Below are positions 1 to 43,969 of a stretch of 44,693 nucleotides of DNA, piece by piece. Each line of letters opens with the position of its first letter. Position 1 is the first letter of the stretch. The position numbers were made by a program, and so were the translations under genes. Source of the stretch: Amoebophrya sp. A120 (lineage: Eukaryota > Protista > Dinoflagellata); NCBI GenBank assembly GCA_905178155.1, contig CAJINV010000026.1:64973-109665 (forward strand). Direction: 5' to 3'. Under the pieces are notes generated by a model. It did not search any database and was not told where the DNA came from. It was given only the letters and a program-made list of their open reading frames with translations.

Positions 1-170
1 AGAATACAATTTTTGCTACGCAGAGAGGACATTTGTCATGCGGACTAGGCATCAAGATGCCCTCAGAAAATCTGTGATGCTAGGGCATGCATCACAGACA
101 TCATGGGTCATGGAAAACCTGCATGACAAGTCTCAGAATCTTCCAGACCCAGACACTTTTACATTTGATA
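1..170. mobile_element. TIR introner, family A (truncated by window edge)
   Basis: Ends CTTCCAGACCCAGACACTTTTACATTTGATA. Confidence 0.85.
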
Positions 171-3100
171 AAGCGACGCTTTATGCAGTTTCTCGTCCTC
201 GGCGAGTTCCTGTAGCCGCTGCGTTAAGAGCATCCGCTCGATGGAAGATCCGTATTTGTCCGTGTTGTTTGTGGAATTTGTCGCGTTTTTTTGCTGCAGC
301 AAGTACTGGTGCTTGACCGCTTCCAAGTCTTTATCTTGAATCAGCTTTTGAAACGGCGGATCGGATTCCAAGGCTTGCAGGAATCGCTTCTATCATTTGT
401 AAAAACGTCCCCACACCAGAGTCAAGATCGGAAGTCTGCTAGACAAATCAGCCAGCGTTGGTTGTTTGGCATGACAAGTTTGTATTCGTAGTGTAGTTAT
501 CCTGTTTGGGTAGTTCAGCAGCATCACAGATCTAGTATATCATTGCTGATCATAGCATCACAAATTCCAAAACACAACTAGAAAATGCTTCTCTTGGCGC
601 TCCGCATGACAAACTTTTCTGGCATGCAGATTTGCATGACAACTCTGGGGTGGACACGTTTTTACTCAGAATAGCTTCTTTTCGTTGCCCATCCGCATCA
701 GGTAGAGTCTGCTGTCCTCCAGAATCTGCAACACCCGACCGCTCTTCCGACTGATTTTGTGAAATTGCAGTTCCAAATTCAGCGAGTCGTAGTTGAAACT
801 GGTGGAGAACAGCTCCTGCAAGGCGATTTTCGAAAGCGACAGGGAAAGCTCCTGCGCGTCGTAGCTCTTGGCGCAGGACTGTAAGCGTCGGATAAGATAT
901 GCAGAAAAGAAACTGCGTAAGCGTGTACTTTCTAATGAAGGAATAGCATGACAAGTTTGCCTTGCATGACACAGAAAACCTGTCATGCGTAGCTAGTACG
1001 TGAAAACACGTATGAAGCCAGCCTCTGACGCATGTCCAGCATGACAGGTCTAAGTGTCTTGCATCGTCTGGGCCTGCAACACAAAGTTACACTTACACAG
1101 TGTTTTTCTTGGATATCAAAACGTCAGAAACACCGCGTAAGCCGTTTCCTTGAAAAGATTTGTTGTTCAACAGCGCGGAGATCCTGCCCGCCTTTGACAG
1201 CTGTTTCTTCACGTGCCCGATCGTATTCGCGAGAACGGTGGGGGATTCGTGGCTGTTCATGCCTCCAGTTTTCGACTTCGCGTACAAAGCCGCTGTTTGA
1301 TATTTTGATACCACGAAATCGAGGTCCGCCAAAGCGTGCAGTTTGATCAACGTCGGGTAAACCCGTTCGTAGGACAGCTCACCAGAGGTGATCGACACCG
1401 TTTTCAGCAGAGCGACCTTGCAGGTGTCCAGCAAATCGTAAAACCGATCAAATTTCTTTTCGTGCACGGCAAGTAAGCATTTCCCGATCTGCACTTGGAA
1501 GTCCTCATGTTGGGAAGACAAGCTCCCCGGGCCGTCGTAGTGATACACCAAGTTGTATGAATTGCGAAAATGTCTGGGTCTGGATGATTGCCAGATTTGT
1601 CTTGCAGGTTTTTCATGACCCATGAGGTCTGGTATGTAGGACATAGCATGACAGATTCTGCGAGACCTTTCTAATCCCTATCCTGCATAAGAAACTGCCT
1701 CTCGATTAGGTCAAAAGTGCAGAAGTTTTGGCAATCATGCAACACAGTTTTTTGCCTGATTCAGATTTAGCATGACAAGTTGCAATCATCCAGACCCAGA
1801 CATATTTGCATTTGATAGGTTCTGGTGTAAGTTTTCATAAAAGCTGTTTCGCTCCCGTGGGTTCTGTATCAAATGCAAAAGTGTCTGGGTCTGGAAGAGT
1901 GCAGACTTGTCATGCATATTTTCCATGCCCCAAGAGGTCAGGAATGCAGGATCTAGCATGACAGATTCTGCGGCGTCTCTATCATGCCTATCCTGCATGA
2001 GAGACTCCCGCTCATGTTGGTCAACAAAAAAGGACAATTTTTGGTGATCACGCAACACAGATTTTTCTGTGATCCACAGGACGCATCACAAATTCCATCC
2101 TCCCAGACCCAGACACTTTTGCAATCCATATTCTGATTGCCAGAACAATTCGGTGCTGACGCAGACGCGGCTAAACTGGTGGAGGAGAAATTTGCAAACC
2201 CGCCTGGGTTGACCGAACTCGCCGTGCCGAACGCCCCCGGCTTGTTAAAATTCGTTAAAGATTCTTGCTGCACCCGAATGACCTGCTGGCGGATTTATCA
2301 AATGTAAAAATGTCTGGGTCTGGAAGAATGCATGTTTGTCATGCTTGTCTGGCATGACTCTTAAATCTGTCACGCACGTTACCCAAAAGGTCCACTTTTC
2401 TGTGATGCAGAAACGCAGATTGTCATGCAGAAAAGGCAACACCTAGAAGCTCAGAAACTTGTCATGCTGAGCCAGCACTTGTGGCCTCATCATGAGACGC
2501 CGCCCAGCATCACAAGTTTCCAGACCCAGACATTTTTGCATTTCATAGGATCTGTTGTTGAATGATATTCGCCGCGGATTTCTTTCCACCGCCAGCATTT
2601 GGAGGTACTCCGCCGCCCGCATTGAAGATCCCTCCGATGGAGCTATTAAACGCTGGGCTTGCGTAATTCGAAGTGATGTAGCTGCCCGCCACATTGAACA
2701 GCTGCGACGTGTTGCCGCCGTGGGCGAGGTATGCATTGCAAAAGCATCGCACTACGTATAGATTGCATTACAAATTTGCTCAGCGTGAGAACTGGAATTT
2801 GTCATGCTTTTTTACCTTAAGCACAAGATTTGTCATGCGTAATTACAATTAGTACGAGTGCGATACTTTTGCACAGGATACAAGACCCATCCCAGAATTC
2901 CGGCTGTTATACTCGTGGGTCGTGATGGCCCCGAATTGGACCGATTTCTTCACCGGCTGTCCTGTGGAGGGCTGGTTTAACATATTTCCGCCGTCGGAAA
3001 GGTTCGGCTTCAAGGCACTGGAGCTACTACCCCCGCTGGTCGTTGTCCCGTTGTGTAACATCATCCCTGGCGGCTTGATGTTCGAAGCAAGCTCCTTCTG

Positions 3101-6100
3101 CTTCTCTTTCTGTTGCGCCGCCTGCTCCTTCGCCAAGGTGGGGAGGAAAGCGCTTGTTCCTGTGTATCAAAATGAAAAATCCCCCCTCCCCATATCAAAA
3201 GAAAATCAGAGAAAATTTCTGATGCTGGATTTGCGTACACAAATGAGGTCTGTCTTGCGGTAAAGAATTCTGGGCAGATTCTTAGGCTGTTTAGGTGCGC
3301 AAGGGTCTAGCTGTTTAGCATGGGAAACGCCTGCCCCGTAGGCCAAGCAGCATGACAAACCGCATCCATAATGCGGCGCATCCCTCACCGCTTGCCTTTT
3401 TGCAAGACAAAAATGATTTGTGATCACAAATCTGCATCACAAATTTCGGAACGGATGCCTTCTCAATACGGGGAGGGGGGATTTTTCTTCACGATACTGT
3501 GGCGTAACTCTTCTGTGCGGAATTGCCCGCGGACCTGATATGTTGGGAGGAAAGTAAAGGTGCGTTAATCTTCACACGCCTAATTCATCCTCTTCGCATT
3601 GATGCAAGTACCCAAGTCAGTGTGGCCCCAAGTAGAGTGTCCGCTGTGGACGACAAAATAATCACATGGAAATGCCTCAGCGACTCTGCCAGCGGTGGGG
3701 GTGAGTCCCACACTCTCGGCGTGGTTCAAGGACGCACAAACAACAAAAAGTATCCAAGCCGTCGTGGTATGGAGATCATTTCTCTCCTGGCCTGGGCGAC
3801 AACTCTCCGCGCCAGCTGTCCAAAAAATGACTGCGGGAGCTCATGCGAGACGCCAAAATGCGCAAGGCATGTCGCCCGAAACAGGGGCGGACGTCTGTGA
3901 CTTAGGCAACGGGAAATATTTCAAAACAAGAGAACGCCCAAAAGTTGAGCAGTTGGCGCTTTTTGATAAACGCGACCCAACGGCGCACCCTTGTGGACCG
4001 CTGGGCGACCGCTCATTGTCGCAGCGGTCACCAAGAGACGCGCCGTCCCCCCGTGCTTCCGTTTTCTTGCAACTCCAGAACTTTTCTGCACACAAACCCA
4101 AAACGAAACCCCCAAACAACCAAAAATATACAAACCTGCATGGCACGGAGGTCATTTCTCTGTTGGCCTGGGCGACAAGGCTCCGCGCCAGCTGTCCAAA
4201 AAATGACTGCGGGAGCTCATGCGAGACGCCAAAATGCGCAAGGCATGTCGCCCGAAACAGGCGCGGACGTCTGTGACTTAGGCAACGGGAAATATTTCAA
4301 AACAAGAGAACGCCCAAAAGTTGAGCAGTTGGCGCTTTTTGATAAACGCGACGGGACGGCGCACCCTTGTGGACCGCTGGGCGACCGCTCATTGTCGCAG
4401 CGGTCACCAAGAGACGCGCCGTCCCGCCGTGATTCCGTTTTCTTGCAGCTTCAGAGCTTGTCTGCACAAAAGCCCAAAACGAAAATCCCAAACAACAAAA
4501 AATATACAAAGCTGCATGGTATGGAGATCATTTCTCTGCTGGCCTGGGCGACAAGGCTCCGCGCCAGCTGTCCAAAAAATGACCGCGGGAGCTCAAGTGG
4601 TAGACCAAACTGCGCAAGTCATGTCGCCCGAAACAGGGGCCAAGCCCTGTGATTTAGGCAACGGGCAACATTTCAAAACAAGAGAACGCCCAGAAGTTGG
4701 GCAGTTGGCGCTTTTTGATAAACGCGACGGGACGGCGCATCCTTGTGAACCGCTGGGCGAGCGCTCATTGTCGCGGCGGTCACCAAGAGACGTGCCGTCC
4801 CGTCGTGATTCCGTTTTCTTGCAACTTCAGAGCTTTTCTGCACACAAGCCCAAAACGAAACCCCCAAACAACCAAAAGTATACAAACCTGCATGGTACGG
4901 AGATCATTTCTCTGCTGGCCTGGGCGACAAGGCTCCGCGCCAGCTGTCCAAAAAATGATCGCTGGCGGAACTGCCAGCAGCCAAAAGTGATCAAAAAGTT
5001 GCCGCAAAGCACGAGGGCGGTCTGCGTTTTCAAAGATGCAGCAAGATCTGCGATGCCAAAAAAATGCGAATGTCCCGAATTTCCCTCCTGTTGTCAATCA
5101 CGAGCGAACGGCTTCCGCTAGCGGACCGCACACAGCGGAAGCCGCACGAAACATAGAAACATGAAAATCCCACAAATAGAACAAGAAGTTGAATACCTAG
5201 ACAAACTCGCATGCGCCTTGAGTTCCTTTCTGATGTTTGGCGGCACAAAGGCCCGACTGTGTTCGTTCATCATGTCATCCGAGTCCGAGTTTTCATCGTC
5301 TTCTTCATCTATCTTCCTAAATTTTGTCCCAGATAGGTTCGTCGCCAGTTTGTTGCCCCCCGCCCCGCGCAGCCCCGACCCCTGCAGGTGCCTTGGCGAA
5401 TGATCCTGCTGAAAGGATTGTTGCCTCCGGAGCTCCCGGGGCAGTTTAGAGTTCGTGTCTGCCTCGCGTCTCTCTGTGTCGCCGAGAATCGCCTGTTGCC
5501 GCATCAGGACTCGTCTGTGCTTCTTCGTGCTGTTCGGGATATGCGCGATATCGTGCGAAAAAAGTGCTTCACTAGAGGAATTTATATTTATTCAGCGTGA
5601 CTTTCGCATCACTCTACTTCACAAGCTTGCTCTACATGAAACAGAATGGAATTTGCCACGCGAGGTTCCACCTACGGGAATAAAACAACGGCGTAGCAAT
5701 CCACTGTCTTACGTCATGTGTAGCGAGACAAACACTTCTGGTTCTGCGATGTAACATTTTCCACCTCCGCACCTACAAGTTTACAGTGAAGCCAAATTAT
5801 TTCTTTGCGATATTGCAATGCGCTCGATTCTTGCTGTCCTGCCGAAAGCGCCGACCCGGGGGATTGCTTCGAGTAGATCCCAGACTCGTGTTTCTGCAGG
5901 GTGGAAAAATTGATGGCATTCTGCAGATTTTTGGAGCTTTTTTCGTTAGAGTCGAACACCTTCTCCGTAGCTGCTTGCTTCCCACCGTCCGATGGTGTGT
6001 ATCACATGCAATTGTGTCTGGGTGTGGAAGGATGCCAGACTTGTAATGCTGAAAGCTCATGCTCCCAAACTTTGTATTGCGTGTTGCAGAATGCTAGTGC

Positions 6101-36100: not shown

Positions 36101-39100
36101 TCCTCGAATGTTTCCCTTTCCACGCAAATTTTCTGCTTTTCGAACAGCTTGTAGCCCGCACTCGTTTTGTCGGGGAGTAAGTTCGTTCCGGGATTTGTCG
36201 AGAACTTTGCCTTTTCCCGCAACACTTTTTCAAAGTGCGACGCGAGAAAGGGGTCGAGCTTTTCTTCGTAGAAAGTCGCGAGGGAAGGGGTCGGGATCAA
36301 AAGTCTGCTATCAAATGTAAAAATGTCTGGGTCTGGAAGAGTGCTACACTTCTCATGCATATTTTGCATGACTCAGGATGTCTGTAATGCATGATCTAGC
36401 ATCACAAATTTTGTGACGGCTTCCTGATGCCTCTACCGCATGAGAAATGCCATTTCGCCGTGGCAAAAACTGGACCCCTTTTGCTGTCCATGCAATACAG
36501 ATTTTTGTATTATCCAAATGCAGCATCACAAGCTGCATTCTTCCAGACCCAGACATTTTTGCATTTGATATCTGCTCTCGCGGTCGAGGTGGAGCGAGCC
36601 ACTACCTGTTCCAAAGCGGCTCTGGTCGTAGTCGTGGTGATATGCATTGCAAAAATATCGTACTCGTATAAATGCATTACAAATTTCCCCAGCATGAGAA
36701 ATGAAATTTGTCATGCGGATTTACCGCAAGAAAAAAATTTGTAATGCATGACTGCGATTACTACGAGTACGATACTTTTGCACAGGATAGGTGATCGTGG
36801 TCGCCGATGTGATGTTGTCCGCCAGCAAGATGATGAACCCCACCTACAGTATCATTACACCCTCCGCAGAAAATCGAAAATGCCCTCGGCAGCAGCCGGT
36901 ACAGAAAGCGTACTAACGAGAGTGCGAAGAGACCGATGTGGCCTGGCCCGAGCAGCCGCGAGTCGAGGTTGAACTGTAGAGATTTGTCGAACATTCTCAG
37001 TTTCAATGCGTCATCTCGGCTTTTATCGGCGGAGGGAAGGATAGCAGCCAACCGGTTTTCCAAACCGTGAACAGTGTTTGATGCTTGCTCGTCCCCCGTC
37101 GCTTCTAGTACAGACGCAAAAATTTCTGCCTTGTCAGACCCCGGCTCCGGCTCCTTTTTTCCTAGATTTTCTGCCGCTAGTGCAATCAGCGTTTCTTCCA
37201 CAAGTGGCCGGATATTGGTGCAGGAGGAATTCCTGCTCCCGCGATTTTTAAACGCAGCTGTCGTCGTGCGACCTGGAGTCGACGTCCTTACTGCTGCGAC
37301 TTGCGCTTGCCCCATCACGTGGAAGTTATTTTGCAGGAGAATTTTCTGCTCCCTTCTCAGCAAAAATTCCCAGTATTCCAGCGCCGCAGCAGAGAGACCC
37401 TCGTCGCAGGACAAGCTCGCTTTTAGGAGGTTTGGTAGGTTTTTTGGCAATAGAAAGATCTTCGAGTTGATCATGTGCTGGTCATCTATATCGAGTTGTG
37501 TTGCGGTATTCATCGTCATCCCTTGGTGTTGAAAACCTTTCATCTCGCGGAGAAGGTTTGCGACGCCGGATAAAGACTTTTCAACCTGCTCGCCAACATC
37601 CCCACCTCCACCGGGAATCAGCTTGTAGAAAGACTTCAGTGCGTTTCTCGTTTCAATCTTCTCATCGTGGATAATATTTACATCGAGAAACGTTTTCCAA
37701 CAGATCTGCTGGGTCAGGGAAACAACTGCGAGCGCCTCCTTTTTCTTTTGAAAGGTAATCAGCTTGTGCTGCATGTTGTCGGTTGATGCAGCCGCGCCGC
37801 CAGGACGACGAGTCGTTGTTGTTCCGAGCGTTTGCCACAGCGACCCGTCACAGGCCGCGTACAACCCGTGCGAAGGCGTGGCGCAATTGGTCAGAAAATC
37901 GTCCAAGCTGTGGAGAATGGTGGATAAATTCAGCTTATCCCCAACGTGGATCCTTTTCTTCTTCACCTGAGCGAGTCTGTGGGTGATCAGCTTTTTCAGG
38001 ATCTTGAACAGGCTGAAAAGCTGGTGCTCGGGCGGCCGGGAGGCGGACAGGTGAGGACCACTGGACGTCAAGAGCTGGCTTGATGTTCTTGTTTCTCTGT
38101 CCACGCTAGACTTATCCTGGTCGTGCTGCCCAACGACCGCAGAAGTACTAGCAGGTCCTACGGAGTCACTAAAATCCAACATCTTGCAGCGCTGAATCTC
38201 CGCAATTTTGCACAGGTATCCCATCTGGTCGTTCAAGAATTCATCTAAAAACTCACTTTCAGAAAAACCGTTGTTCGCCCCGGTATTGTCTTTGTCGTCA
38301 GGGAAAACGAAGAAAACCGCGTTCACCGCGTGAAACAGCGCTTCAATCAGCGAGAATGTCATGCCTTCTGTCGCGGGACCTCTTGGGTAGAGGTGGAGCT
38401 TTTTAGTACCGCCAGCATCAAGAACTCCCGTAGTACCTCTGTGGAGGCATTTCCTGTGCTGCTTCTGCACCTTCTTCTTTTCCTTCCCGAAAAGAGCCAG
38501 AACGCAGTGCAATACTTCAAGCAAAATGTCCGTGGCTGAAGTTTTTCGCATCACCGATTTGTTCTTCTTGGCGTAGAGGTTCTCGTCGATTCGGATCAGT
38601 TCGGAGTTACTTTGAGCATTGGTGCCAGGCTTTCGAACCAAATCAGCAACCACTGCAGTGTTGGTCGAAGTGCCGGGGAAGAGACTCGCGGAGAAAGAAG
38701 AACTGGCCTGCTCGGATTTCTTGGTCTTCTCCCGATGAACTTGTTCCGCATTTGAAAAATCCAGACCAACGCGCTCGATCTGCAATTTTCCCCCAAACGG
38801 GAGTTTATCCGATTTGAATTCGCGGCAGATCATGGTGATTAGGTCGGAGATGCGGATCATGGCGTTTTCCAAATTCGTCTTGAAAAGCGAGATCTTCTGG
38901 TCGACTTTACCCTGCCCGCCCTGCCCCCCGCCCTTCCGGCTGGTCGGGAGGTTCGCGAAGAGGTGGGTGAAGCTGATGGCTTTGCCCAGGCCTCGTTTTT
39001 CCAGAAGCTCCTGCTGCTTCGCAGTATTGGATGCACTAGACGAATTGTTGCTGGACGCACTACTAGTACTCGCGATCAGGCTGTTGACGATAAACGGCTC

Positions 39101-42070
39101 TTGGAGAAGCTTGGCAGATCGGGTGAAGAAGAGCATGGATTCGAGACCACTAGAACTACCACAACCGTGGCCGTTGGAGTCTTCGTCGGTGAAGATATTG
39201 TCGTCTTTGGCTTCTCTATTCATCTTTACGTCGTTGAACTTTGTGAACTCCAGCTCGGAGTTTATGCCGAAGTCGTGGTCACCAGCAAAATTCCGATACC
39301 CTGAGTAAAAACGTCCCCACGCCAAAGTTGTAATGCAGATTTGCAAAGACAGCAAGACTTGTAATGCGCATCCCCATGAGAGGCATTTCCAATCGGGTTT
39401 TGGAATTTGTGATGCTGTGAACAGGATGAGCAGACGAATCTGTGATGCGGCTGCACTTGCTAGCCTGCACTAAACTGCAGAGTGCAACTTGTCATGCGTG
39501 ACTCACAAAACTCCTAGGTTTGTGTTGCAAAATCCCCATCCTGACTCTGGTGTGGGTACGTTTTTACTCAGGATATCCGACCGGATTTCTTCTTGTTCCC
39601 CTGAAAAATATGCTCGGGGACTTTCAGTTTTGGTGGGTGCTTTTTCTGCAGCAAGTCAATGTTACCGTGGCGTACGTAAAGAATTCGCAACTTGGAAATC
39701 GCCTCGACGCAGTCTATGCATTGCAAATATGTCTGGGTCTGGAAGCGCGGAAGTTTGTCATGCTCGGCTAGCATGACTCTCAAATGTGTCTTGCACGTTA
39801 CTTACCCCAAAGCTCCAACTTTCTGTCATGCAAAAAGGCAGCTTGTCATGCTGAATAGACAACACGTAGCAAATCATAAACTTGTCATGCTGAGCCGTCA
39901 CTTGTGGCATCCTCATGATTCGCCACTCAGCATCACAAATCTCCAGACTCAGACATTTTTGCAATCCATACAGTCCTCCAGCAGGCAATACACCAGATTC
40001 GACGTGTTGAAGCTGGTCGCCGTGCTGGAATCGTCCGCCAAATTGTGTTCGATATGAACTGCAAAAGTATCGAACTCGTAGTAATTGCAGTCATGCATTT
40101 ACAAATCTTTTCTCTTGAAGTAGATCCGCATTACAAATCTTATTTCTCACGCTGAAGAAATTTGTAATGCATTTATACGAATACGATGCTTTTGCAGTTC
40201 ATATTCGATGTGAAACAACAAATTTACCAGGACCTGCACGACCAATTCCGGTCGGTACTGCTGGGAAACCGGTAGAACTGCTTCCGCGATGTGGGCCGAA
40301 GCGTTGGCAATGGGCGGCTGCAGTATCTCGTGCCGCAAGTAGAAATTGTCTTCCTCGGCGGGGAGACTCTGCTGGTAGAACAACCTGACGGAAATGTGGA
40401 AGCGTTGCGTTTTTGATTTTTTCGATTAGAAGAGTAATTCGCGACTTAGTTCTGAAAAGAAACTTATGGTTAGAACCCGACCTGACTCTGATGCTTTTTA
40501 TATCAACATGCTTTTTTCAAAAAATGTTTATTCCATAAAATGCTTTTCATCTTATTTCAACGGTCGAGCTATATTTTTCTAATTTTCACTTTCCGCTCGG
40601 GGAAGGTGAATAAAATGATTCAAAAAATGCTTCAATGCATGAGGGCTGCAGCAGATGCAGGCTTGAACGCTGTAGCCGTCACGCACAGATACAATATCGT
40701 GCGAATCATACCCTCGCGATTTGAGATTTTAAAAATCAAAGACCATACCGTGGAACGCTACATACCCTCGCGATTCCACTTTTCGTATTTTTCGCGATGA
40801 AAATTTTTAAGTACTATATAAGAAAACTTCATACCTTCCATACCCCGGCAGCGCTTTCAAAATGCAGTAGGCCATGAAGGCGGGGAGGTTCAAGCTCGTG
40901 AATACTTCTTTGCCCTGTTCGAGAAAGTCTTTCATCAAACACAAGCACTTCGCCGCATTATGGTGTTTGACTTCCACTTCCAGCTGTGTTGCGGTACTTG
41001 CAGCGTTATCGCATGTCCTGTTTTCCTCCTGTGCAGCTCCAAAACCCGCACCACCTCCCACGACCGGTTGTTGCGGCGGCGCCTTGTAGAAGGGTGCGTA
41101 TTCAAAGGCGTAGCGGAAGAGAACGTTTTTCACGATGATTTTTTTCAAACTGCTATCCTGAGCAAAAACGTCCCACCCCAGAGTCAGGATGGGGATTTTG
41201 CAACACAAAGCTAGGAGTTTTGGGAGTCACGCATGACAAATTGCGCTCCGCAGTGTAGTGCAGGTTAGCAAGTGCAGCCGCGTCACAGATTCATCTGCTC
41301 ATCCTGTTCACAGCATCACAAATTCCAATACACGATTGGAAATGGCTCTCATGCGGATGCGCATTACAAGTCTCCCTGTCTTTGCAAATCTGCATTACAA
41401 CTCTGGTGTGGGGACTTTTTTACTCAGGATAGCTGCTTCGAATCGCACTCGTGGAATTCAGATTGTTATCCGCATTTATCGCGTTGTAGTCCACGAGATC
41501 CCCCCCGTTCATCTTCTCAATGGCGGACACCAATTTCTCCGCGTCCAGGTTCAACGGGAGCTTGTAGCAAGAGTCTGGAATCGACTCGTCAAACAGCTCC
41601 GTGATCTGCGGCCAGTTTTCCGGAACCTTCCACCCCGTCGTGCTACAGGTGGGCGGCTTCGCGATGCCCGGAGCGGTTGCGCTGGCGATATAGCCAGTTG
41701 TAGCACCTCCTGGTGGTGGTGGCTTCATCGTGTTCTTAACATTGTTCGCAGCTGCTGTAGGTGCTGACAATGAAGATGTTGCGCCAAGAAGCTGTGGGGT
41801 CGACGAGCCCTGCTCGGTAGTCTGGAGATTTTTAGTTTTAGCACCACCACGACCCGCACTGCTGCTGCTACTACTAGTACCGCTAGTACCACTACCCGCA
41901 GCCTGCTTCGACGCCTTCCTTTTCGATCCAGATGGTTGCGCCGGTTGAGCTTTTTTTCCTGTTGCTTCTTTAGAAACATTGCGACTGGACTTTCCGGAAG
42001 CCGTTCCGCCGCGAGCGCCTGGCGGGGGGTCGGGCCCGTCGCTCCGCCCGCTCCCGGAGTTGGAAGTCAT
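1..42070 (-). CDS. ATR: Giant multi-exon ATR/Mec1/Rad3-like PIKK kinase gene (HEAT region and part of FAT domain; 3' end and kinase domain lie beyond position 1)
   Basis: ATR-like motifs in the expected order: LCASVFGLVGAMD, YHYAAQQILKVL, FSEDVKKQLLPFLTSSY, IFIGCYPVIKTHNLALARYLAPFLLRIIL, LVQAAERIGAHARALLYLE, AAEAAWRLSSWDTL, FQVQIGKCLL..FYDLL..SYERVYPTLIKLHALADL (compare human ATR as recalled: EAAWKLSQWDLV, WSVRLGQLLL..FYDSL..SYQRGYEYIVRLHMLCELE). Exons in transcript order, each including flanking 5-bp repeat copies: 41432-42070, 40835-41153, 40204-40384, 39971-40052, 39576-39714, 36790-39296, 36571-36640, 35679-36308, 35431-35523, 35103-35169, 34824-34941, 33244-34674, 32797-32930, 31374-31696, 30513-31210, 29822-29881, 29531-29569, 29054-29212, 28318-28897, 27967-28102, 27579-27697, 27083-27408, 26709-26758, 26411-26446, 25631-26128, 25204-25415, 24925-25007, 24157-24684, 23813-23859, 23365-23474, 23061-23131, 22301-22806, 18838-19402, 18439-18622, 17718-17830, 17394-17441, 16508-17154, ~16148-16233, 13820-14008, 13536-13600, 13108-13153, 12828-12898, 12325-12562, ~11278-12030, 8665-8917, 8336-8399, 8020-8119, 6888-7739, 6599-6652, 6267-6322, 5813-5999, 5197-5548, 3497-3534, 2881-3164, 2548-2729, 2131-2295, 1818-1866, 1116-1555, 674-897, 171-390. 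Confidence 0.85.
391..673. mobile_element. TIR introner, family B
   Basis: TATCATTTGTAAAAACGTCCCCAC...; direct repeat (DR) GCTTC/GCTTC. Confidence 0.9.
898..1115. mobile_element. TIR introner, family C
   Basis: TATGCAGAAAAGAAACTG...CAGTGTTTTTCTTGGATA; DR TAAGA/TCAAA; frame restored. Confidence 0.85.
1116..1555 (-). CDS. ATR: FAT-domain exon (FQVQIGKCLL...SYERVYPTLIKLHALADL)
   Basis: Core of ORF 1093..1644; strongest ATR-like motif in the window. Confidence 0.9.
1556..1817. mobile_element. TIR introner, family A
   Basis: TGTCTGGGTCTGGA TIRs; DR AGTTG/GGTTC; frame restored. Confidence 0.88.
1867..2130. mobile_element. TIR introner, family A
   Basis: DR TTCTG/TTCTG. Confidence 0.9.
2296..2547. 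mobile_element. TIR introner, family A
   Basis: DR GGATT/GGATC; interior similar to 22807-23060 and 39715-39970. Confidence 0.9.
2730..2880. mobile_element. TIR introner, family D
   Basis: TATGCATTGCAAAAGCATCG...CGATACTTTTGCACAGGATA; DR CGAGG/CAAGA. Confidence 0.88.
3165..3496. mobile_element. TIR introner, family E
   Basis: TATCAAAATGAAAAATCCCCCCTCCC...; DR CTGTG/CTGTG; frame restored. Confidence 0.9.
3535..5196 (-). other. Canonical GT-AG intron containing the 376-bp repeat
   Basis: CTAG|GTATTC...TATCAG|GTCC; in-frame join ...LSRSAGNSAQ. Confidence 0.75.
3735..4958. repeat. Tandem repeat, 376-bp unit, about 3.2 copies
   Basis: Equivalent ORF starts at 3945, 4321 and 4697. Confidence 0.92.
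5549..5812. mobile_element. TIR introner, family C-like, with degenerate DR
   Basis: TATCGTGCGAAAAAAG...TTTCTTTGCGATA; DR CGCGA/TTGCA (1 of 5) but 5-bp removal restores frame. Confidence 0.75.
6000..6266. mobile_element. TIR introner, family A
   Basis: DR GTGTG/GTGTG. Confidence 0.9.
6323..6598. mobile_element. TIR introner, family B
   Basis: DR AAGTC/AAGTC. Confidence 0.9.
6653..6887. mobile_element. TIR introner, family F
   Basis: TATGGGGCTCTCAAACGTTACATTTTCAACTGTTACATGA with inverted counterpart; DR AGGAC/AGGAC. Confidence 0.9.
6888..7739 (-). CDS. ATR: Q/G/P/N-rich low-complexity exon inserted within the FAT domain
   Basis: Core of ORF 6678..7808; in-frame joins translated through 6599-6652, 6267-6322, 5813-5999 and 5197-5548. 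Confidence 0.8.
7740..8019. mobile_element. TIR introner, family E
   Basis: DR CTGGC/ATGGC. Confidence 0.88.
8120..8335. mobile_element. TIR introner, family C-like
   Basis: TATCAAGAGAAAAAAG...CTTTTTTCCTGTGATA; DR GGAGA/GGAGA. Confidence 0.88.
8400..8664. mobile_element. TIR introner, family A (right end GTA)
   Basis: DR GGATG/GGATG. Confidence 0.9.
8665..8917 (-). CDS. ATR: FAT-domain exon (AAEAAWRLSSWDTL)
   Basis: Frame of ORF 8579..8806, open back to CAATAG| at 8918. Confidence 0.85.
9084..9378. repeat. 120-bp repeat built of CGACAAAAACC subunits, ending in a perfect 27-bp-arm hairpin
   Basis: Units near 9084, 9204 and 9324; arms 9323-9349 and 9352-9378. Confidence 0.88.
9381..10890. 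repeat. Tandem repeat, 128-bp unit, about 12 copies
   Basis: AAAATCGCCGGGCTCCGA at 9391, 9519, 9647...; the unit holds the palindrome CGATTCTCAGCGCTGAGAATCG. Confidence 0.95.
11278..12030 (-). CDS. ATR: FAT-domain exon (ELQEKWQDALHLY...GVVRCLLASRHY)
   Basis: ORF 11230..12030; donor position approximate. Confidence 0.8.
12031..12324. mobile_element. TIR introner, family F
   Basis: DR GTCAA/GTCAA. Confidence 0.88.
12563..12827. mobile_element. TIR introner, family A
   Basis: DR GCCGG/GCCGC. Confidence 0.9.
12899..13107. mobile_element. TIR introner, family C
   Basis: DR CTTCT/CTTCT. Confidence 0.9.
13154..13535. mobile_element. TIR introner, family A, with nested 110-bp insertion
   Basis: DR AGGCC/AGGCC; insert 13199-13308 flanked by CTTCTTG repeats. 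Confidence 0.9.
13601..13819. mobile_element. TIR introner, family G (left end TGT)
   Basis: TGTGAGAGTGCAC...GTGCACTCTCATA; DR CGCCC/CGCCC. Confidence 0.88.
13820..14008 (-). CDS. ATR: Exon at the start of the FAT domain (LVQAAERIGAHARALLYLE)
   Basis: Hand translation, frame not shown in the ORF track; resembles the ATR LAxASFRSKAYTRAVMHFE segment. Confidence 0.85.
14009..16147 (-). other. Probable canonical intron containing the 84-bp satellite
   Basis: Acceptor TAACAAG|GTTG follows an in-frame stop; donor uncertain; extra exons in 15050-16150 not excluded. Confidence 0.45.
14069..15041. repeat. Tandem repeat, 84-bp unit, about 11.5 copies
   Basis: ACTTCCTGAAGCGC at 14081, 14165, 14249...15005; 13-bp stem TTTTCCAGATCGG/CCGATCTGGAAAA. 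Confidence 0.95.
16234..16507. mobile_element. TIR introner, family F
   Basis: TATGACCTGCTCA...TGAGCAAGGCATA; DR TTCGC/TTCGC. Confidence 0.88.
16508..17154 (-). CDS. ATR: Exon with IFIGCYPVIKTHNLALARYLAPFLLRIIL
   Basis: Frame of ORF 16432..17004 is open to element 17155-17393. Confidence 0.85.
17155..17393. mobile_element. TIR introner, divergent C-like
   Basis: Weak TIR; DR CCGAA/CCGAA; frame restored (KFGNDKS). Confidence 0.8.
17442..17717. mobile_element. TIR introner, family A
   Basis: DR CGGAG/CGGAG. Confidence 0.9.
17831..18438. mobile_element. TIR introner, family D, with nested ~450-bp insertion
   Basis: DR AATCG/AATCG; family D sequence interrupted at about 17876-18322. Confidence 0.88.
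18623..18837. mobile_element. TIR introner, divergent C-like
   Basis: TATGCAAGGATAATTTC...GAAATTTTCTCTTGGATA; DR GTCGC/GCCGT; frame restored. Confidence 0.78.
18838..19402 (-). CDS. ATR: Exon with YHYAAQQILKVL (ATR AYALQELL-like)
   Basis: Core of ORF 18774..19493; acceptor ACATAG|CGG inferred. Confidence 0.78.
19403..22300 (-). other. Canonical GT-AG intron containing the 149-bp satellite
   Basis: GCTA|GTGCCA...ACATAG|CGG; phases match; alternative sites possible. Confidence 0.55.
19632..22180. repeat. Tandem repeat, 149-bp unit, about 17 near-identical copies
   Basis: Identical ORFs recur every 149 bp (19877, 20026, 20175...). Confidence 0.97.
22301..22806 (-). CDS. ATR: Exon with LCASVFGLVGAMD (ATR CLGELGAIDP-like)
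   Basis: Frame of ORF 22227..22583 is open back to element 22807-23060. Confidence 0.8.
22807..23060. mobile_element. TIR introner, family A
   Basis: DR TCGTG/TCGTG. Confidence 0.9.
23132..23364. mobile_element. TIR introner, family A (left end CAT)
   Basis: DR TTTCG/TTTCG. Confidence 0.88.
23475..23812. mobile_element. TIR introner, family B
   Basis: DR GCGGG/GCGGG. Confidence 0.9.
23860..24156. mobile_element. TIR introner, family B (diverged)
   Basis: DR CGTAA/CGTAA. Confidence 0.88.
24157..24684 (-). CDS. ATR: Exon of the ATR-like gene
   Basis: Core of ORF 24149..24790; I translated in-frame joins through 23813-23859, 23365-23474, 23061-23131 and 22301-22806. Confidence 0.82.
24685..24924. 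mobile_element. TIR introner, family G
   Basis: TATGAGAGTGCA...TGCACTTTCATA; DR CTTTG/CTTCA; frame restored. Confidence 0.85.
25008..25203. mobile_element. TIR introner, family D-like, with internal ~39-bp tandem duplication
   Basis: DR CGGCT/CGGCT; ATGAAAGCCGCTTGCACAAGAAGACATACAGTTTGTCAT twice. Confidence 0.88.
25416..25630. mobile_element. TIR introner, family C
   Basis: DR TTGCA/TTGCA; close relative of 898-1115. Confidence 0.9.
25631..26128 (-). CDS. ATR: Exon of the ATR-like gene (LLEENFLYILDIFE, UME-region-like)
   Basis: Core of ORF 25466..26182; domain label is inference. Confidence 0.78.
26129..26410. mobile_element. TIR introner, family B
   Basis: DR AAAAG/AAAAG. Confidence 0.9.
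26447..26708. mobile_element. TIR introner, family A
   Basis: DR GGTCG/GGTCG. Confidence 0.9.
26759..27082. mobile_element. TIR introner, family E
   Basis: DR TGGCC/TGGCC; opposite orientation to 3165-3496. Confidence 0.9.
27083..27408 (-). CDS. ATR: Exon of the ATR-like gene (helical, FLPFILYELI...AAFQYL)
   Basis: Core of ORF 26967..27404. Confidence 0.8.
27409..27578. mobile_element. TIR introner, family D
   Basis: DR TCTTG/TCTTC. Confidence 0.86.
27698..27966. mobile_element. TIR introner, family A
   Basis: DR CGAGC/CGAAC. Confidence 0.9.
28103..28317. mobile_element. TIR introner, family C (left end TGT)
   Basis: DR GTTGT/GTTGT. Confidence 0.87.
28318..28897 (-). CDS. ATR: Exon of the ATR-like gene
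   Basis: Core of ORF 28278..28904. Confidence 0.8.
28898..29053. mobile_element. TIR introner, family D
   Basis: DR AAGCA/AAGTA. Confidence 0.87.
29213..29530. mobile_element. TIR introner, family E
   Basis: DR ATGAA/TTGAA. Confidence 0.88.
29570..29821. mobile_element. TIR introner, family A
   Basis: DR CCATG/CCATG. Confidence 0.9.
29946..30305. repeat. Degenerate 21-bp GGTTCC(G/T)AACT repeat organised as a 192-bp duplication
   Basis: CCGATGGTTCCTAACTAAGAT near 29946 and 30138. Confidence 0.82.
30324..30434. repeat. Two abutting perfect palindromes (34-bp and 21-bp arms)
   Basis: 30324-30357/30359-30392 and 30392-30412/30414-30434. Confidence 0.92.
30513..31210 (-). CDS. ATR: Exon of the ATR-like gene
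   Basis: In frame with ORF 31264..31692 after removing element 31211-31373 plus 5 bp; includes ORF 30412..31068; donor GGAG|GTCTC inferred from phase. Confidence 0.7.
31211..31373. mobile_element. TIR introner, family D
   Basis: DR AAAAA/AAAAA; frame restored. Confidence 0.88.
31697..32796. mobile_element. TIR introner, family B, with nested ~820-bp GC-rich insertion
   Basis: TATCCTATTTGAAAACGTCCCCAC...GTGGGGACATTTTTACTCAGGATA; DR CAAAC/CAAAC. Confidence 0.88.
32931..33243. mobile_element. TIR introner, family H (single copy here)
   Basis: TATTACAGTGAAAAGTGCCCCC...GGGGGCATTTTTCATTGTAATA; DR GGCTG/GGCTG. Confidence 0.9.
33244..34674 (-). CDS. ATR: Large exon of the ATR-like gene
   Basis: Core of ORF 33233..34783 between TIR elements. 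Confidence 0.85.
34675..34823. mobile_element. TIR introner, family D
   Basis: DR GTAAT/GTAAT. Confidence 0.9.
34942..35102. mobile_element. TIR introner, family D (opposite orientation to neighbour)
   Basis: DR GGAAG/GGATT; frame restored. Confidence 0.87.
35170..35430. mobile_element. TIR introner, family A
   Basis: DR CCTGC/CCTGC. Confidence 0.9.
35524..35678. mobile_element. TIR introner, family D
   Basis: DR TCCTT/TCCTT. Confidence 0.9.
35679..36308 (-). CDS. ATR: Exon of the ATR-like gene
   Basis: Core of ORF 35650..36369 between TIR elements. Confidence 0.8.
36309..36570. mobile_element. TIR introner, family A
   Basis: DR TCTGC/TCTGC. Confidence 0.9.
36641..36789. mobile_element. 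TIR introner, family D
   Basis: DR GGTGA/GGTGA. Confidence 0.9.
36790..39296 (-). CDS. ATR: Largest exon (about 835 codons) of the ATR-like gene
   Basis: Core of ORF 36761..39355, bounded by two TIR elements. Confidence 0.85.
39297..39575. mobile_element. TIR introner, family B (left end TAC)
   Basis: DR TCCGA/TCCGA; reverse-complement relative of 41154-41431. Confidence 0.9.
39715..39970. mobile_element. TIR introner, family A
   Basis: DR CAGTC/CAGTC. Confidence 0.9.
40053..40203. mobile_element. TIR introner, family D
   Basis: TATGAACTGCAAAAG...CTTTTGCAGTTCATA; DR TTCGA/TTCGA. Confidence 0.9.
40385..40834 (-). other. Canonical GT-AG intron, AT-rich
   Basis: GGAAG|GTATGA...CGTCAG|GTTG; phases match. 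Confidence 0.8.
41154..41431. mobile_element. TIR introner, family B
   Basis: DR ACTGC/GCTGC. Confidence 0.9.
41432..42070 (-). CDS. ATR: First coding exon (S/G/K-rich N-terminus MTSNSGSG...)
   Basis: ORF 41420..42070; ends at element 41154-41431. Confidence 0.75.
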
Positions 42071-43222
42071 GATGGGAAAAAATAAAAAATGTCGCTAGGA
42101 TATTATGGTGTATTTGTGAATGTTAAATACGATAGGTGATACGTTCAAGATGAAGGATCACATGATCGTCGTATAGTCTAGTACTTGACGCGACAGATGA
42201 AACGACTCCAGCGCCTTTTTTCGCAAGCAGGGATACATACCTGCGGCACCATCGTTCTCATTTCATCGAAGTGGTCACAAGTTAAGAATAGTCGCACGGG
42301 GGTAAAAATCACATCTTTGTTCTACTTCCGTTGTTATGTAGTCCATGTCGGTCGCTATGGTGAAATTCTGCCTTGCTTTTGAAGAAATCGTGGTGGAATC
42401 GAGGTAGTCACGACATCTAGTGCAGCTTCCGGCTGAATATCGTGGCAGCACTTCTATACAGCTGCAGAAAAAAAAAGATTAAAGTGGTTGTGCATGTACG
42501 AAAGGAAGCTGCAACAAGATCTTCTCTGGCTTGCGCGTACAGATGAAAATGCGCCTTTTCTCAACAGGGAGGCGAAAGCAAAAACTGTAACTGAGAGACC
42601 ACAAGCTTTTGGTACAGCTGCCCATCGAATAAAGATTCTATCGCGCAAAGAGATGCTGAATCTGCTTAGCTACTTGAGTGGCATCTTCAGCTACGCATCT
42701 TCGGACCTTTCATCTTTTCAGCACTGTGAACTACTGCGAGGTAGTACTTACTACTTCCTTGTCCCTTCTTCCTCCACATCGTCATCAACACAAAAACTTC
42801 GATCCTTCATGCCACATCAATCAATAGACGACAAACCACGGGGAACGTCGGAAGCAATGTAGTTTTAGGCTGTATCTGCCTTCAGTTTTTGCAGCACACC
42901 TCATCTTCAACTATAGTGCGCCGTCAAGATCAGCATCCACTTCGTATCACCTGTGATAGGTCCACAATCGCATTGACGTTCCAAGAAATGTGAACAAAAA
43001 ATTCCAGAACACATGTTGCTACTCGCAGGCACTACCGCTTCACGGTTGTCGGGGTGTCGCGCTTGTGGACTCCGTTCCTCCTCGCTTGCGGAGTCCAAAG
43101 ACCAGAAAACTTTTGTTAAAATAAAACAAAAAAGCTCCACTGCGGACAGCTTTTGCGGAAAATCTGGCGGCAAGAGAAACCGAAGTTAGCATCTTTCCCC
43201 CGACCTGTATCCCGTTTCCCGT

Positions 43223-43335
43223 GTTGCTATGGTTGAAACGCTTGTGTTTATGTCGGTTGCTATGGTTGAAACGCTTGTGTTAATGTCGGTTGCTATGGTT
43301 GAAACGCTTGTGTTTATGTCGGTTGCTATGGTTGA
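43223..43335. repeat. Tandem repeat, 33-bp unit, about 3.4 copies
   Basis: GTTGCTATGGTTGAAACGCTTGTGTTTATGTCG at 43223, 43256, 43289, 43322. Confidence 0.92.
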
Positions 43336-43969
43336 TGAAACTTTTCCACGTTGTTCTTCTGAATGTTTCTCACAAATTCACTTCTAATGCACGAGCCAAG
43401 ATCTTACTTCTTCGTTCTACAACTAAAAAAGGCGCACTTACGAAAACAACAGGTGGATCTTTCTTTGCTGGCAGGTCCACGAGGTGCGAGTTTTCATCTC
43501 AACAGAAAGCAAAAACCGTATCAGGGGGACAACCTTTGTTCCGAGCTGTCGCACTTGTATGATTGATTCTATCGCGGAAAGGGATACTTAAGTACTTAGC
43601 TCAGCTTCGGAATTCGAGTAACATCATCGTCTGCATCTTCAGCCATGCGCTGAACCCTTCACAACGTTCGTTGAGCTAGTCGTGCTGAGAGGTATGACTT
43701 CCTTGACTCTTCTTTCACAACATGGTCATCATCATTTGCCACAACAACTTTGATCTTTTTCGGCACATCAATCACCTGAGGACAAGATGAAACGGAGAAC
43801 ATTGAAAGAGTGTGGCTCTGGGCTTTATCAATCTGCCTCCAGTGAGCACAACTCGGTCTTGGCCACACCCACGGCCATAGCGCGCCAGCATGTTTATATT
43901 TGTTAAGTATGTTACACACGACGATAAGTCACCCGCTTCAGCGTACTTTAGAAAAGGCGCAAAGGCTAC

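What the first reader, a model, noticed from the sequence alone, without database searches (positions are those of the whole stretch)
1..41431. 54 transposon-shaped, non-GT-AG intervening elements precisely interrupt one conserved gene
Seen: every element runs TAT...ATA (5 single-base end variants) with terminal inverted repeats and a flanking 5-bp direct repeat (38 of 53 perfect). No consistent GT/GC donor or AG acceptor lies at or within the junctions (transcript-strand repeats include CACAC, TCTCC, TTTTT, CATCC). Deleting the element plus one repeat copy restored the frame at all ~20 junctions I translated and rebuilt ATR motifs in order. About 14 kb of the 42-kb gene is made of these elements. 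Known: similar inverted/direct-repeat introners were reported in Amoebophrya, so the class is not new, but I know of no established excision mechanism. Inference: an end-directed removal system (a modified spliceosome, an endonuclease plus ligase acting on the TIR stem, or IES-like DNA excision) runs alongside normal GT-AG splicing in the same gene.
Basis: partly seen in the sequence, partly recalled or inferred. Interest (0 to 1): 0.95.

Follow-up and report, generated by a model that had tools for sequence, protein, structure and literature searches.

The report
Hairpin introns cut at fixed offsets
In the marine parasite Amoebophrya, about 60 transposon-shaped inserts of an already described kind interrupt one ATR-like kinase gene; those tested are missing from its transcripts, every junction that can tell fits a cut one base before and four bases after the insert whatever those bases are, and the cutter is likely a rewired spliceosome guided by the insert's predicted hairpin.

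Summary
Observation confirmed and extended. The gene is an ATR-like kinase gene of Amoebophrya sp. A120. It carries 60 complete TAT…ATA elements, one cut by the window edge, and one plain GT-AG intron. Removing each element plus 5 nt gives 5,731 codons with no stop. One 5.6-kb transcript contig skips 7 of 7 elements in 1-3730, and a DNA-type run retains them. These are the published A120 introner elements (Farhat 2021), whose borders were reported as unknown. What I add: all 14 junctions with an imperfect repeat and data share one register, N|N-TAT…ATA-NNNN|N (chance 0.0005). Five of them were predicted before the data were fetched. There is no G or AG preference at the cut sites (131 elements). 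The register puts U at +2 and A at +3, as in a GUA donor. Best guess is a U1-less spliceosome guided by the stem (0.5); a Euglena-like nuclease plus ligase is close (0.35). The scan earlier noted similar hairpin introns in other dinoflagellates (unchecked).

The parts
1..42070 (-). ATR-like PIKK gene, 5' part (ATG at 42070; 62 exons, 5,731 codons in the window; kinase domain lies beyond base 1)
   Evidence: (Pfam FAT at 1117-1554, E 3e-7); four public A120 proteins match the model 390/390, 208/209, 803/803, 699/699
1..170 (-). element cut by the window edge (5' TIR only)
   Evidence: RNA contigs of X1 and X4 leave the window at 169 and go on in a frame matching the A25 orthologue
391..673 (-). 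element, repeat 5/5
   Evidence: skipped in 4 of 4 runs
898..1115 (-). element, repeat 3/5; allowed offsets -1, 0, +1
   Evidence: skipped in 3 of 4 runs
1556..1817 (-). element, repeat 3/5; allowed offsets +1 to +4
   Evidence: skipped in 2 of 4 runs
1867..2130 (-). element, repeat 5/5
   Evidence: skipped in 3 of 4 runs
2296..2547 (-). element, repeat 4/5; allowed offsets 0 to +4
   Evidence: skipped in 4 of 4 runs
2730..2880 (-). element, repeat 3/5; allowed offsets 0, +1; end-to-end hairpin predicted, z -5.2
   Evidence: skipped in 4 of 4 runs
3165..3496 (-). element, repeat 5/5
   Evidence: skipped in 4 of 4 runs
3539..5195 (-). hybrid: GT-AG intron 3535-5196 with TAT…ATA at the same register, TIR decayed (4/20), 376-bp tandem array inside; counted among the 60, element origin uncertain
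   Evidence: X1 loose end at 3536 continues at 5199
5549..5812 (-). element, repeat 1/5; offsets 0, +1
   Evidence: P0005, predicted beforehand
6000..6266 (-). element, repeat 5/5
   Evidence: P0005
6323..6598 (-). element, repeat 5/5
   Evidence: P0005
6653..6887 (-). element, repeat 5/5
   Evidence: P0005
7740..8019 (-). element, repeat 4/5; offsets +1 to +5
   Evidence: P0005, predicted beforehand
8120..8335 (-). element, repeat 5/5
   Evidence: P0005
8400..8664 (-). element, repeat 5/5, 5' end TAC
   Evidence: P0005
8919..11327 (-). 2.4-kb element with a 128-bp tandem array, repeat 3/5; offsets 0 to +3
   Evidence: P0005, predicted beforehand
12031..12324 (-). element, repeat 5/5
   Evidence: ends and frame only
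12563..12827 (-). element, repeat 4/5; offsets 0 to +4
   Evidence: P0003
12899..13107 (-). element, repeat 5/5
   Evidence: P0003
13154..13535 (-). element, repeat 5/5
   Evidence: P0003
13601..13819 (-). element, repeat 5/5, 3' end ACA
   Evidence: P0003
13978..15172 (-). 1.2-kb element with an 84-bp tandem array, repeat 2/5; offsets +1 to +3
   Evidence: P0003
15234..15556 (-). element, repeat 3/5; only offset +1 fits
   Evidence: P0003
15649..16189 (-). element, repeat 2/5; offsets +1 to +4
   Evidence: P0003
16234..16507 (-). element, repeat 5/5
   Evidence: P0003
17155..17393 (-). element, repeat 5/5, weak TIR
   Evidence: P0004
17442..17717 (-). element, repeat 5/5
   Evidence: P0004
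17831..18438 (-). 608-nt element with an internal insertion, repeat 5/5
   Evidence: P0004
18623..18837 (-). element, repeat 3/5; offsets -1, 0, +1
   Evidence: P0004, predicted beforehand
19379..22319 (-). 2.9-kb element with a 149-bp x17 tandem array, repeat 1/5, 3' end ACA; offsets 0 to +2
   Evidence: P0004, predicted beforehand
22807..23060 (-). element, repeat 5/5
   Evidence: P0004
23132..23364 (-). element, repeat 5/5, 3' end ATG
   Evidence: P0004
23475..23812 (-). element, repeat 5/5
   Evidence: P0004
23860..24156 (-). element, repeat 5/5; present whole in a DNA-type contig
   Evidence: P0004; X5 record 9
24685..24924 (-). element, repeat 3/5; present whole in a DNA-type contig
   Evidence: ends and frame; X5 record 9
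25008..25203 (-). element, repeat 5/5
   Evidence: ends and frame only
25416..25630 (-). element, repeat 5/5
   Evidence: ends and frame only
26129..26410 (-). element, repeat 5/5
   Evidence: ends and frame only
26447..26708 (-). element, repeat 5/5
   Evidence: ends and frame only
26759..27082 (-). element, repeat 5/5
   Evidence: ends and frame only
27409..27578 (-). element, repeat 4/5
   Evidence: ends and frame only
27698..27966 (-). element, repeat 4/5
   Evidence: ends and frame only
28103..28317 (-). element, repeat 5/5, 3' end ACA
   Evidence: ends and frame only
28898..29053 (-). element, repeat 4/5
   Evidence: ends and frame only
29213..29530 (-). element, repeat 4/5
   Evidence: ends and frame only
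29570..29821 (-). element, repeat 5/5
   Evidence: ends and frame only
29876..30519 (-). 644-nt element, repeat 5/5
   Evidence: ends and frame only
31211..31373 (-). element, repeat 5/5; present whole in a DNA-type contig
   Evidence: X5 record 11
31697..32796 (-). 1.1-kb element with an internal insertion, repeat 5/5
   Evidence: ends and frame only
32931..33243 (-). element, repeat 5/5
   Evidence: an X1 contig piece stops at the exon edge, joint not listed
34675..34823 (-). element, repeat 5/5
   Evidence: ends and frame only
34942..35102 (-). element, repeat 3/5
   Evidence: ends and frame only
35170..35430 (-). element, repeat 5/5; reads GT..AG at offset +1
35524..35678 (-). element, repeat 5/5
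   Evidence: ends and frame only
36309..36570 (-). element, repeat 5/5
   Evidence: ends and frame only
36641..36789 (-). element, repeat 5/5
   Evidence: ends and frame only
39297..39575 (-). element, repeat 5/5, 3' end GTA; 92% like 41154-41431 in the opposite orientation
39715..39970 (-). element, repeat 5/5
   Evidence: ends and frame only
40053..40203 (-). element, repeat 5/5
   Evidence: ends and frame only
40385..40834 (-). plain GT-AG intron (starts GTATG, no ATA at -7..-5)
   Evidence: sequence and frame; not tested on RNA
41154..41431 (-). element, repeat 4/5
   Evidence: ends and frame only

Best explanation
The inserts are the known Amoebophrya A120 introner elements, likely non-autonomous DNA transposons with a 5-bp target duplication; those tested are missing from spliced transcripts, every informative junction fits a cut 1 nt before the opening TAT and 4 nt after the closing ATA, and the cutter is most likely a rewired U1-less spliceosome guided by the predicted end-to-end hairpin. 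Shown: the elements stay in DNA-type contigs, are absent from transcript contigs, sit in both orientations, and the bases at the cut sites match background. Inferred: insertion by a transposase that makes a 5-nt stagger (none found here). Inferred: the inverted repeats pair in the pre-mRNA and bring the ends together, replacing U1 and AG recognition. Inferred: the TAT supplies +2U, +3A, +4U of a donor whose first base is free, and the 3' site is measured from the ATA. Speculative: the branch A is one of the two A's of that ATA (-7 or -5). Because the cut takes 1 nt of one repeat copy and 4 nt of the other, any insertion site in either orientation restores the frame.
For: RNA-level removal: X1 contig of 5,646 nt skips 7 of 7 complete elements in 1-3730 with 0 other letters and also the GT-AG intron 3535-5196; X2 5 of 7, X3 7 of 7, X4 5 of 7. 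DNA retention: X5 contigs span whole elements unbroken. Register: 5 RNA junctions and 9 junctions read from transcript-based public proteins share only +1; chance 0.0005 under independent uniform offsets 0-5; 5 of the 9 were predicted before P0004 and P0005 were fetched. Both orientations: 25 of 40 best hits within the window are on the opposite strand. Stem: mean pairing 0.7-0.9 over most TIR positions in 52 folded elements; z -5.2 for one. For a spliceosome: the register makes +2U/+3A invariant in 60 of 60 (the only 5' variant is at the third base); the two elements that read GT..AG do so at +1; the one with a decayed TIR is GT-AG. Farhat 2021 found 83 of 89 spliceosomal proteins and U2, U4, U5, U6 in A120 but no U1, while the strain from Karlodinium has U1 and canonical introns. 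All 9 commonest A120 non-canonical donors in Table S4 are N-T and all 9 in A25 are TT, where the repeat starts TTA. Tunicate and Stentor precedents show a flexible spliceosome and a putative branch A 5 nt from the 3' end.
Against: No trace of selection for G at +1 or AG at the end: 18 and 6 of 60 in the window, 18 and 4 of 71 in a second assembly. Non-canonical spliceosomal introns elsewhere keep preferred ends. The predicted stem pairs the TAT itself (about 0.7 end-to-end), which a spliceosome would have to open. The 5'-versus-3' asymmetry of end variants (1 vs 5) did not replicate (3 vs 3). A C bias at intron -4/-3 (14 of 23) did not replicate (2 of 14). GTAAGT, not GTAT, is the top donor-like word outside elements. 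Table S4 placements come from HISAT2 inside ambiguous repeats, so they are not independent proof. The four runs are at most 2 samples of 1 study, 'RNA' is a guess in their record, and they may share a source with the annotation. 27 of 60 junctions and 7 of 21 imperfect repeats were not tested.
Confidence: 0.5

Rival explanations
1. A non-spliceosomal system measures from the base of the TIR stem, cuts 1 nt before and 4 nt after it, and ligates the exons (endonuclease plus RNA ligase, or a dedicated transesterase), as proposed for euglenid nonconventional introns.
For: Cut sites match background composition in 131 elements. The ends are symmetric and both orientations work. The stem is predicted to include TAT/ATA. 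Euglena introns have fixed spacers of 3 nt and 5-6 nt around a paired motif, shown by knock-in, and leave as circles.
Against: It does not explain why the register coincides with the GUA donor frame (about 1 in 6 by chance) or the GT-AG hybrid at the same register. No such enzyme was searched for or found. The one end-to-start RNA joint seen has a 6-nt spacer unlike this locus's repeat, and 6-7-nt spacers exist in DNA, so it is no evidence of circles.
Confidence: 0.35
2. The element-free contigs are reverse-transcriptase template-switch artefacts at hairpins flanked by direct repeats; the cell copes in some other way.
For: Hairpin plus direct repeat is the known recipe for such artefacts (my knowledge; seen as a search listing only). 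No direct RNA reads were available.
Against: Joints with only 1-2 letters of shared sequence are skipped just as exactly (2724-2881, 891-1115), as are repeats with 1 of 5 matches. One register fits all 14 informative junctions. The A25 orthologue is collinear across two junctions. A retained set of elements would destroy the reading frame.
Confidence: 0.04
3. The elements are cut out of DNA in some life stage, like ciliate IESs.
For: TA-bounded, TIR-bearing, precise. The joint table of the DNA-type run was truncated (1,036 rows not shown) and contigs drop rare variants, so rare element-free DNA is not excluded.
Against: X5 contigs pass unbroken through three whole elements at 28-38x depth. The contig lacking the elements also lacks a GT-AG intron. 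A second assembly holds 306 such elements in DNA. No germline/soma split is known in this lineage (my knowledge).
Confidence: 0.04
4. RNA polymerase II skips the element during transcription by hopping across a DNA hairpin between the repeat copies.
For: It would also be sequence-blind and orientation-independent.
Against: Repeats with 1 of 5 matches and elements of 2.4-2.9 kb are removed at the same register. Element sequence is abundant in the RNA-type runs, although its source loci are unknown.
Confidence: 0.03

Closest known systems
Introner elements / non-canonical introns of Amoebophrya sp. A120 (Farhat et al. 2021, PMC7789003)
   Same: Same species by protein match. Repeat starts TAT + about 7 nt + AAA, 5-bp direct repeats, about 240 nt, mixed with GT-AG introns, no transposase inside.
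   Different: The paper calls the splice sites variable and the border position unknown; here one register, +1/+4, fits all 14 informative junctions. It analysed introns of 40-1000 nt only; here copies of 1.1-2.9 kb follow the same rule. The public annotation holds this gene as at least four partial proteins.
Euglenid nonconventional introns (Nomura et al. 2025, PMC12501133; review PMC11282704)
   Same: MITE-like, inverted repeats at the ends, repeats at the junction, cut at fixed spacer lengths from a paired motif, coexisting with GT-AG introns.
   Different: Motif CDG/CH'G with spacers 3 and 5-6 and a purine at exon +1, against TAT/ATA with spacers 1 and 4 and no exon +1 preference. Circles are reported in Euglena; the excised form here is unknown.
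Fritillaria borealis non-canonical introns (bioRxiv 10.1101/2025.08.15.670264; review PMC11282704)
   Same: Transposon-derived, TIR and target duplication, genome-wide; removed by a modified U2 spliceosome.
   Different: Preferred ends AG-AC/AG-AT and U1 retained; here no end preference and U1 not detected.
Classical introners of Micromonas, Aureococcus and Polarella (via review PMC11282704 and PMC12130899)
   Same: Non-autonomous TIR transposons whose splice sites come partly from the element and partly from the target duplication.
   Different: They need GT/GC/GA and AG; here 2 of 60 and 1 of 71 read GT..AG.
ATR/Mec1 kinases
   Same: FAT domain and ATR as only hits; the A25 orthologue's kinase hits ATR best (E 5e-69, Mec1 9e-54, ATM 2e-47).
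   Different: Over 5,700 residues before the kinase domain, with long low-complexity inserts; human ATR is 2,644 residues in all.

Membership tests
Amoebophrya A120 introner elements | terminal inverted repeat starting TAT, about 7 variable bases, then AAA | tested here: met
   end logos; definition
Amoebophrya A120 introner elements | 3-5-nt direct repeat at the borders | tested here: met
   5-nt repeat, perfect in 39 of 60 and 226 of 306 in a second assembly
Amoebophrya A120 introner elements | repeated families | tested here: met
   7 families cover 40 of 60; up to 95% identity to copies in other loci
Amoebophrya A120 introner elements | absent from RNA, with non-GT-AG ends | tested here: met
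   7 of 7 in 1-3730; 31 junctions in transcript-based proteins
MITE (non-autonomous TIR DNA transposon) | TIR, fixed-length target duplication, no transposase | tested here: met
   no transposase family in 33 of 65 long open frames scanned, the 32 left out being further frames of the tandem arrays
MITE (non-autonomous TIR DNA transposon) | empty site in a relative, and a cognate autonomous partner | tested here: inconclusive
   the A25 protein is collinear across two junctions but its DNA was not seen; none of 134 loci matched this gene; no whole genome held
U2 spliceosomal intron | GT/GC donor and AG acceptor | tested here: not met
   G at +1 in 18 of 60 and 18 of 71; AG in 6 of 60 and 4 of 71; background level
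U2 spliceosomal intron | U at +2 and A at +3 | tested here: met
   60 of 60 at the deduced register, but supplied by the TIR, so also expected without a spliceosome
U2 spliceosomal intron | lariat with 2'-5' branch; dependence on U2/U5/U6 | not testable with these tools
   only contigs were available for this strain
Euglenid-type nonconventional intron | fixed spacers between a paired terminal motif and the cut sites | tested here: met
   1 and 4 nt, against 3 and 5-6
Euglenid-type nonconventional intron | CDG/CH'G motif and purine at exon +1 | tested here: not met
   motif is TAT/ATA; exon +1 is G 19, C 16, A 14, T 11
Euglenid-type nonconventional intron | excised as a full-length circle | tested here: inconclusive
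   one end-to-start joint with a 6-nt spacer; 5 nt is predicted, and 6-7-nt spacers occur in DNA
Ciliate-type IES | precise excision from DNA | tested here: not met
   elements intact in DNA-type contigs of one sample; other stages not seen
ATR/Mec1 | FAT domain and PIKK kinase closest to ATR | tested here: met
   FAT in the window; kinase tested only on the A25 orthologue; no tree built

The most novel reading that the evidence does not exclude
Amoebophrya A120 has a splicing system that ignores the bases at both cut sites and measures them from a terminal RNA stem (1 nt before, 4 nt after), so any TAT…ATA transposon landing anywhere in either orientation becomes a perfect intron. It is either a spliceosome that needs neither U1, G+1 nor AG, or a separate nuclear intron-removal machine that arose independently of the euglenid one.
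Probability: 0.75. Interest if true: 0.85.

Novelty: already known. Interest (0 to 1): 0.62.

Why it matters
The elements are published, but how they leave the RNA is an open question, and the published borders were undefined. A single register turns that question into direct tests: it names the exact ends expected for a lariat, circle or linear product, predicts a 5-nt spacer equal to the target duplication in any circle, and gives two candidate branch A's. It also gives a rule for re-annotating about 30,000 A120 introns (29,850 in the paper) and for joining genes now held in pieces. If the cutter is a spliceosome, it would be one that has dropped both terminal dinucleotides; if not, it would be a second case of stem-measuring intron removal beside euglenids. 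Either way it explains how a transposon can fill a DNA-damage kinase gene with 60 copies and leave the frame intact.

Tried and rejected
No whole genome is held, so U6/U2 sequences, transposases and ligases could not be searched. No listed holder of the stretch is on record as RNA. In one search the DNA-type run swamped the joint table, so no spliced joint in 22400-42300 was listed. My first model treated 15234-16189 as one element, and there +1 gave a stop; P0003 showed two elements and an 87-nt exon, which removed the conflict. One search used a start one base off and is void. Rejected after a larger sample: C bias at intron -4/-3, and 5'/3' asymmetry of end variants; 'canonical donors here are GTAT' as a general rule. 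Rejected: the X4 end-to-start joint as evidence of circles. The element-end pattern had 0 matches in viral contigs. No Rfam family in the window. No transposase domain in long elements; the Pfam hits on 13979-14716 have zero passing stretches and come from the 84-bp array. Two exons gave no useful solved-structure hit. The register was not found in print in searches; the library lacks most subscription papers, and the figure images of Farhat 2021 (Fig. 3, S17, S19-S25) could not be seen and may bear on this.

Full report
Observation. A scan for TAT…ATA pairs with inverted and 5-bp direct repeats, an end profile built from 36 of them and local searches in the remaining gaps gave 59 elements, revised to 60 complete elements plus one cut by the window edge. 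About a dozen weak borders were chosen with the reading frame in view, so the frame result is partly circular for those; most were later confirmed by RNA or public proteins. The strict pattern occurs 31 times against 0-2 in each of 20 shuffles. 39 of 60 direct repeats are perfect; 55 elements are under 700 nt (14.7 kb) and all total 24.0 kb. Several long copies carry tandem arrays of 84-376 bp. With each element plus 5 nt and one GT-AG intron (40385-40834) removed, the minus strand reads 5,731 codons from ATG 42070 without a stop, in 62 exons, 14 of them under 60 nt.

Gene and organism. An exon at 1117-1554 hits Pfam FAT, and its only solved-structure hits are ATR, weakly (E 0.034). It matches a partial protein labelled Amoebophrya sp. 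A120 and an A25 protein with a PI3/4-kinase domain, whose best solved relative is ATR. Four public proteins match the model at 390/390, 208/209, 803/803 and 699/699. The kinase domain is outside the window: an RNA contig runs on for about 3.9 kb, and its first letters translate to a motif found in the A25 protein.

RNA or DNA. On 1-3730, four runs guessed to be RNA (at most 2 samples, 1 study) skip the elements: X1 7 of 7 in a single 5,646-nt contig with no other letters, X2 5 of 7, X3 7 of 7, X4 5 of 7; every skip is element + 5 nt. The X1 contig also jumps the GT-AG intron 3535-5196, so it is a spliced transcript. On 22400-42300, run X5 covers exons, introns and upstream DNA at about 18-44x, with unbroken contigs across three whole elements, and shows summed depth up to about 1e5 on element bins. 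Its joint table was truncated, so rare element-free DNA is not excluded.

The register. Where the two repeat copies differ, the product shows how many bases of each were removed. Counting bases taken from the upstream copy, the RNA allows {-1,0,1}, {1-4}, {0-4}, {0,1} and {0-3} at five junctions. Public proteins, whose gene models were built from transcript alignments, allow {0-2}, {0,1}, {1-4}, {1}, {1-3}, {0-4}, {0-3}, {1-5} and {0,1} at nine more. All 31 junctions covered by those proteins are compatible, and their only common offset is +1. The chance that 14 independent uniform offsets share any value is 0.0005. Five of the nine were written down per offset before P0004 and P0005 were fetched; by hand the chance that all five fit is about 0.03. 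One apparent exception, a stop at 16191, vanished when P0003 revealed a missed exon and gave the junction that fits only +1. So the intron is N-TAT…ATA-NNNN. 7 of 21 imperfect repeats and 27 of 60 junctions remain untested.

What the ends say. At that register the first base and the last two match background: G in 18 of 60, AG in 6 of 60. 134 were read and gave 306 unique elements. A strand could be called for 71 of the 292 with at least 3 of 5 repeat matches, and G was first in 18 and AG last in 4. Family members sit in both orientations. The ends are predicted to pair, including TAT with ATA, with a weaker zone at TIR positions 4-7. Two hints from the window did not replicate in the 71: more variants at 3' than 5' ends, and a C bias at -4/-3. 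One weak, post hoc trend did: repeat position 3 (exon -2, intron -2) mismatches least (pooled 20, 17, 5, 10, 13; p 0.03).

Mechanism. Shown: RNA-level, exact, fixed-register, sequence-blind removal. Inferred: insertion by a transposase with a 5-nt stagger; none is encoded in the frames scanned, though a published A120 family has TIRs and integrase-like frames. For excision I favour a rewired spliceosome (0.5). The register puts U, A, U at +2 to +4, the frame of a GUA donor. The two elements that read GT..AG do so at +1, one having lost its TIR. A120 keeps U2, U4, U5, U6 and most proteins but U1 was not detected, while a relative with U1 has canonical introns. The commonest non-canonical donors in Table S4 are all N-T in A120 and TT in A25, though aligner placement may bias this. 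Against it stand the complete lack of selection for G or AG and a stem that hides the donor. A stem-measuring nuclease plus ligase, as proposed for Euglena with spacers of 3 and 5-6 nt, is nearly as likely (0.35). RT artefact, DNA excision and polymerase skipping are each unlikely for the reasons given under rivals.

Known and new. Farhat et al. 2021 described these elements in this species, with TAT + 7 nt + AAA ends and direct repeats, and left the borders 'variable' and 'unknown' and the mechanism open. The system is therefore already known. The +1/+4 rule, its sequence-blindness and its extension to multi-kilobase copies were not found in searches.

What I saw of each paper. PMC7789003: abstract, sections 10, 11, 12, 16, 25, 32, passages, and supplement text passages (Table S4 rows, figure legends; no figures). 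PMC12501133: abstract, sections 8 and 12. bioRxiv 2025.08.15.670264: abstract and section 14. PMC12130899, PMC11282704, PMC11453091, PMC12005148, PMC9505925: passages only. RT-artefact papers: search listing only. Henriet 2019, Guminska 2021 and Roy 2023 were not read and are cited through the review. Spliceosome contact details not attributed to a call are from my own knowledge.

Verdict. Real, RNA-level, known class; new and testable cut rule; machine unresolved. Interest 0.62.

Noticed in passing
window 3535-5196: GT-AG intron that also has TAT and ATA at the element register but no TIR; may be an old element that became canonical, or coincidence.
   Followed up: partly
L050 7410-7417; L059 3422-3428: Two element ends only 7 and 6 nt apart in DNA; under the +1/+4 rule they would leave exons of 2 and 1 nt if they lie in a transcript.
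   Followed up: partly
window 1866/2130, run X4: One contig (depth 4.8) joins an element's end to an element's start across 6 letters unlike this locus's repeat; probably adjacent genomic copies elsewhere, circle not excluded.
   Followed up: partly
window 9381-10895, 14081-15046, 19634-22188, 3737-4958, 43976-44693: Tandem arrays of 128, 84, 149, 376 and 176 bp; the first four sit inside introns, and public proteins or RNA show those introns are still removed exactly.
   Followed up: partly
window 13601-13819, 19379-22319, 28103-28317: Three elements end ACA (TGT on the other strand), all at the transcript 3' end; TGT…ACA is the end recalled for Ginger/integrase-type elements, a possible clue to the mobilising enzyme (recalled, untested).
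   Followed up: no
window about 42095-42240: Putative 5' UTR intron starting GTATGT and ending CTAG just upstream of the ATG; further GT-AG-like signals at 42300-43900.
   Followed up: no
window 32711-32760 and 39537, run X8: A 2026 raw-read RNA run under the same species label lays 98 partial reads at 95-99% on element sequence and none on whole exons: another strain may carry a related, transcribed element.
   Followed up: no
direct repeats, window and L-loci pooled: Mismatches between the two repeat copies are rarest at position 3 (5 of 65; p 0.03, post hoc), hinting that exon -2 and intron -2 may need to match.
   Followed up: partly
window 172-42070: The ATR-like protein has over 5,700 residues before its kinase domain, with long Q/G/S-rich inserts; the public annotation holds it in partial pieces.
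   Followed up: partly
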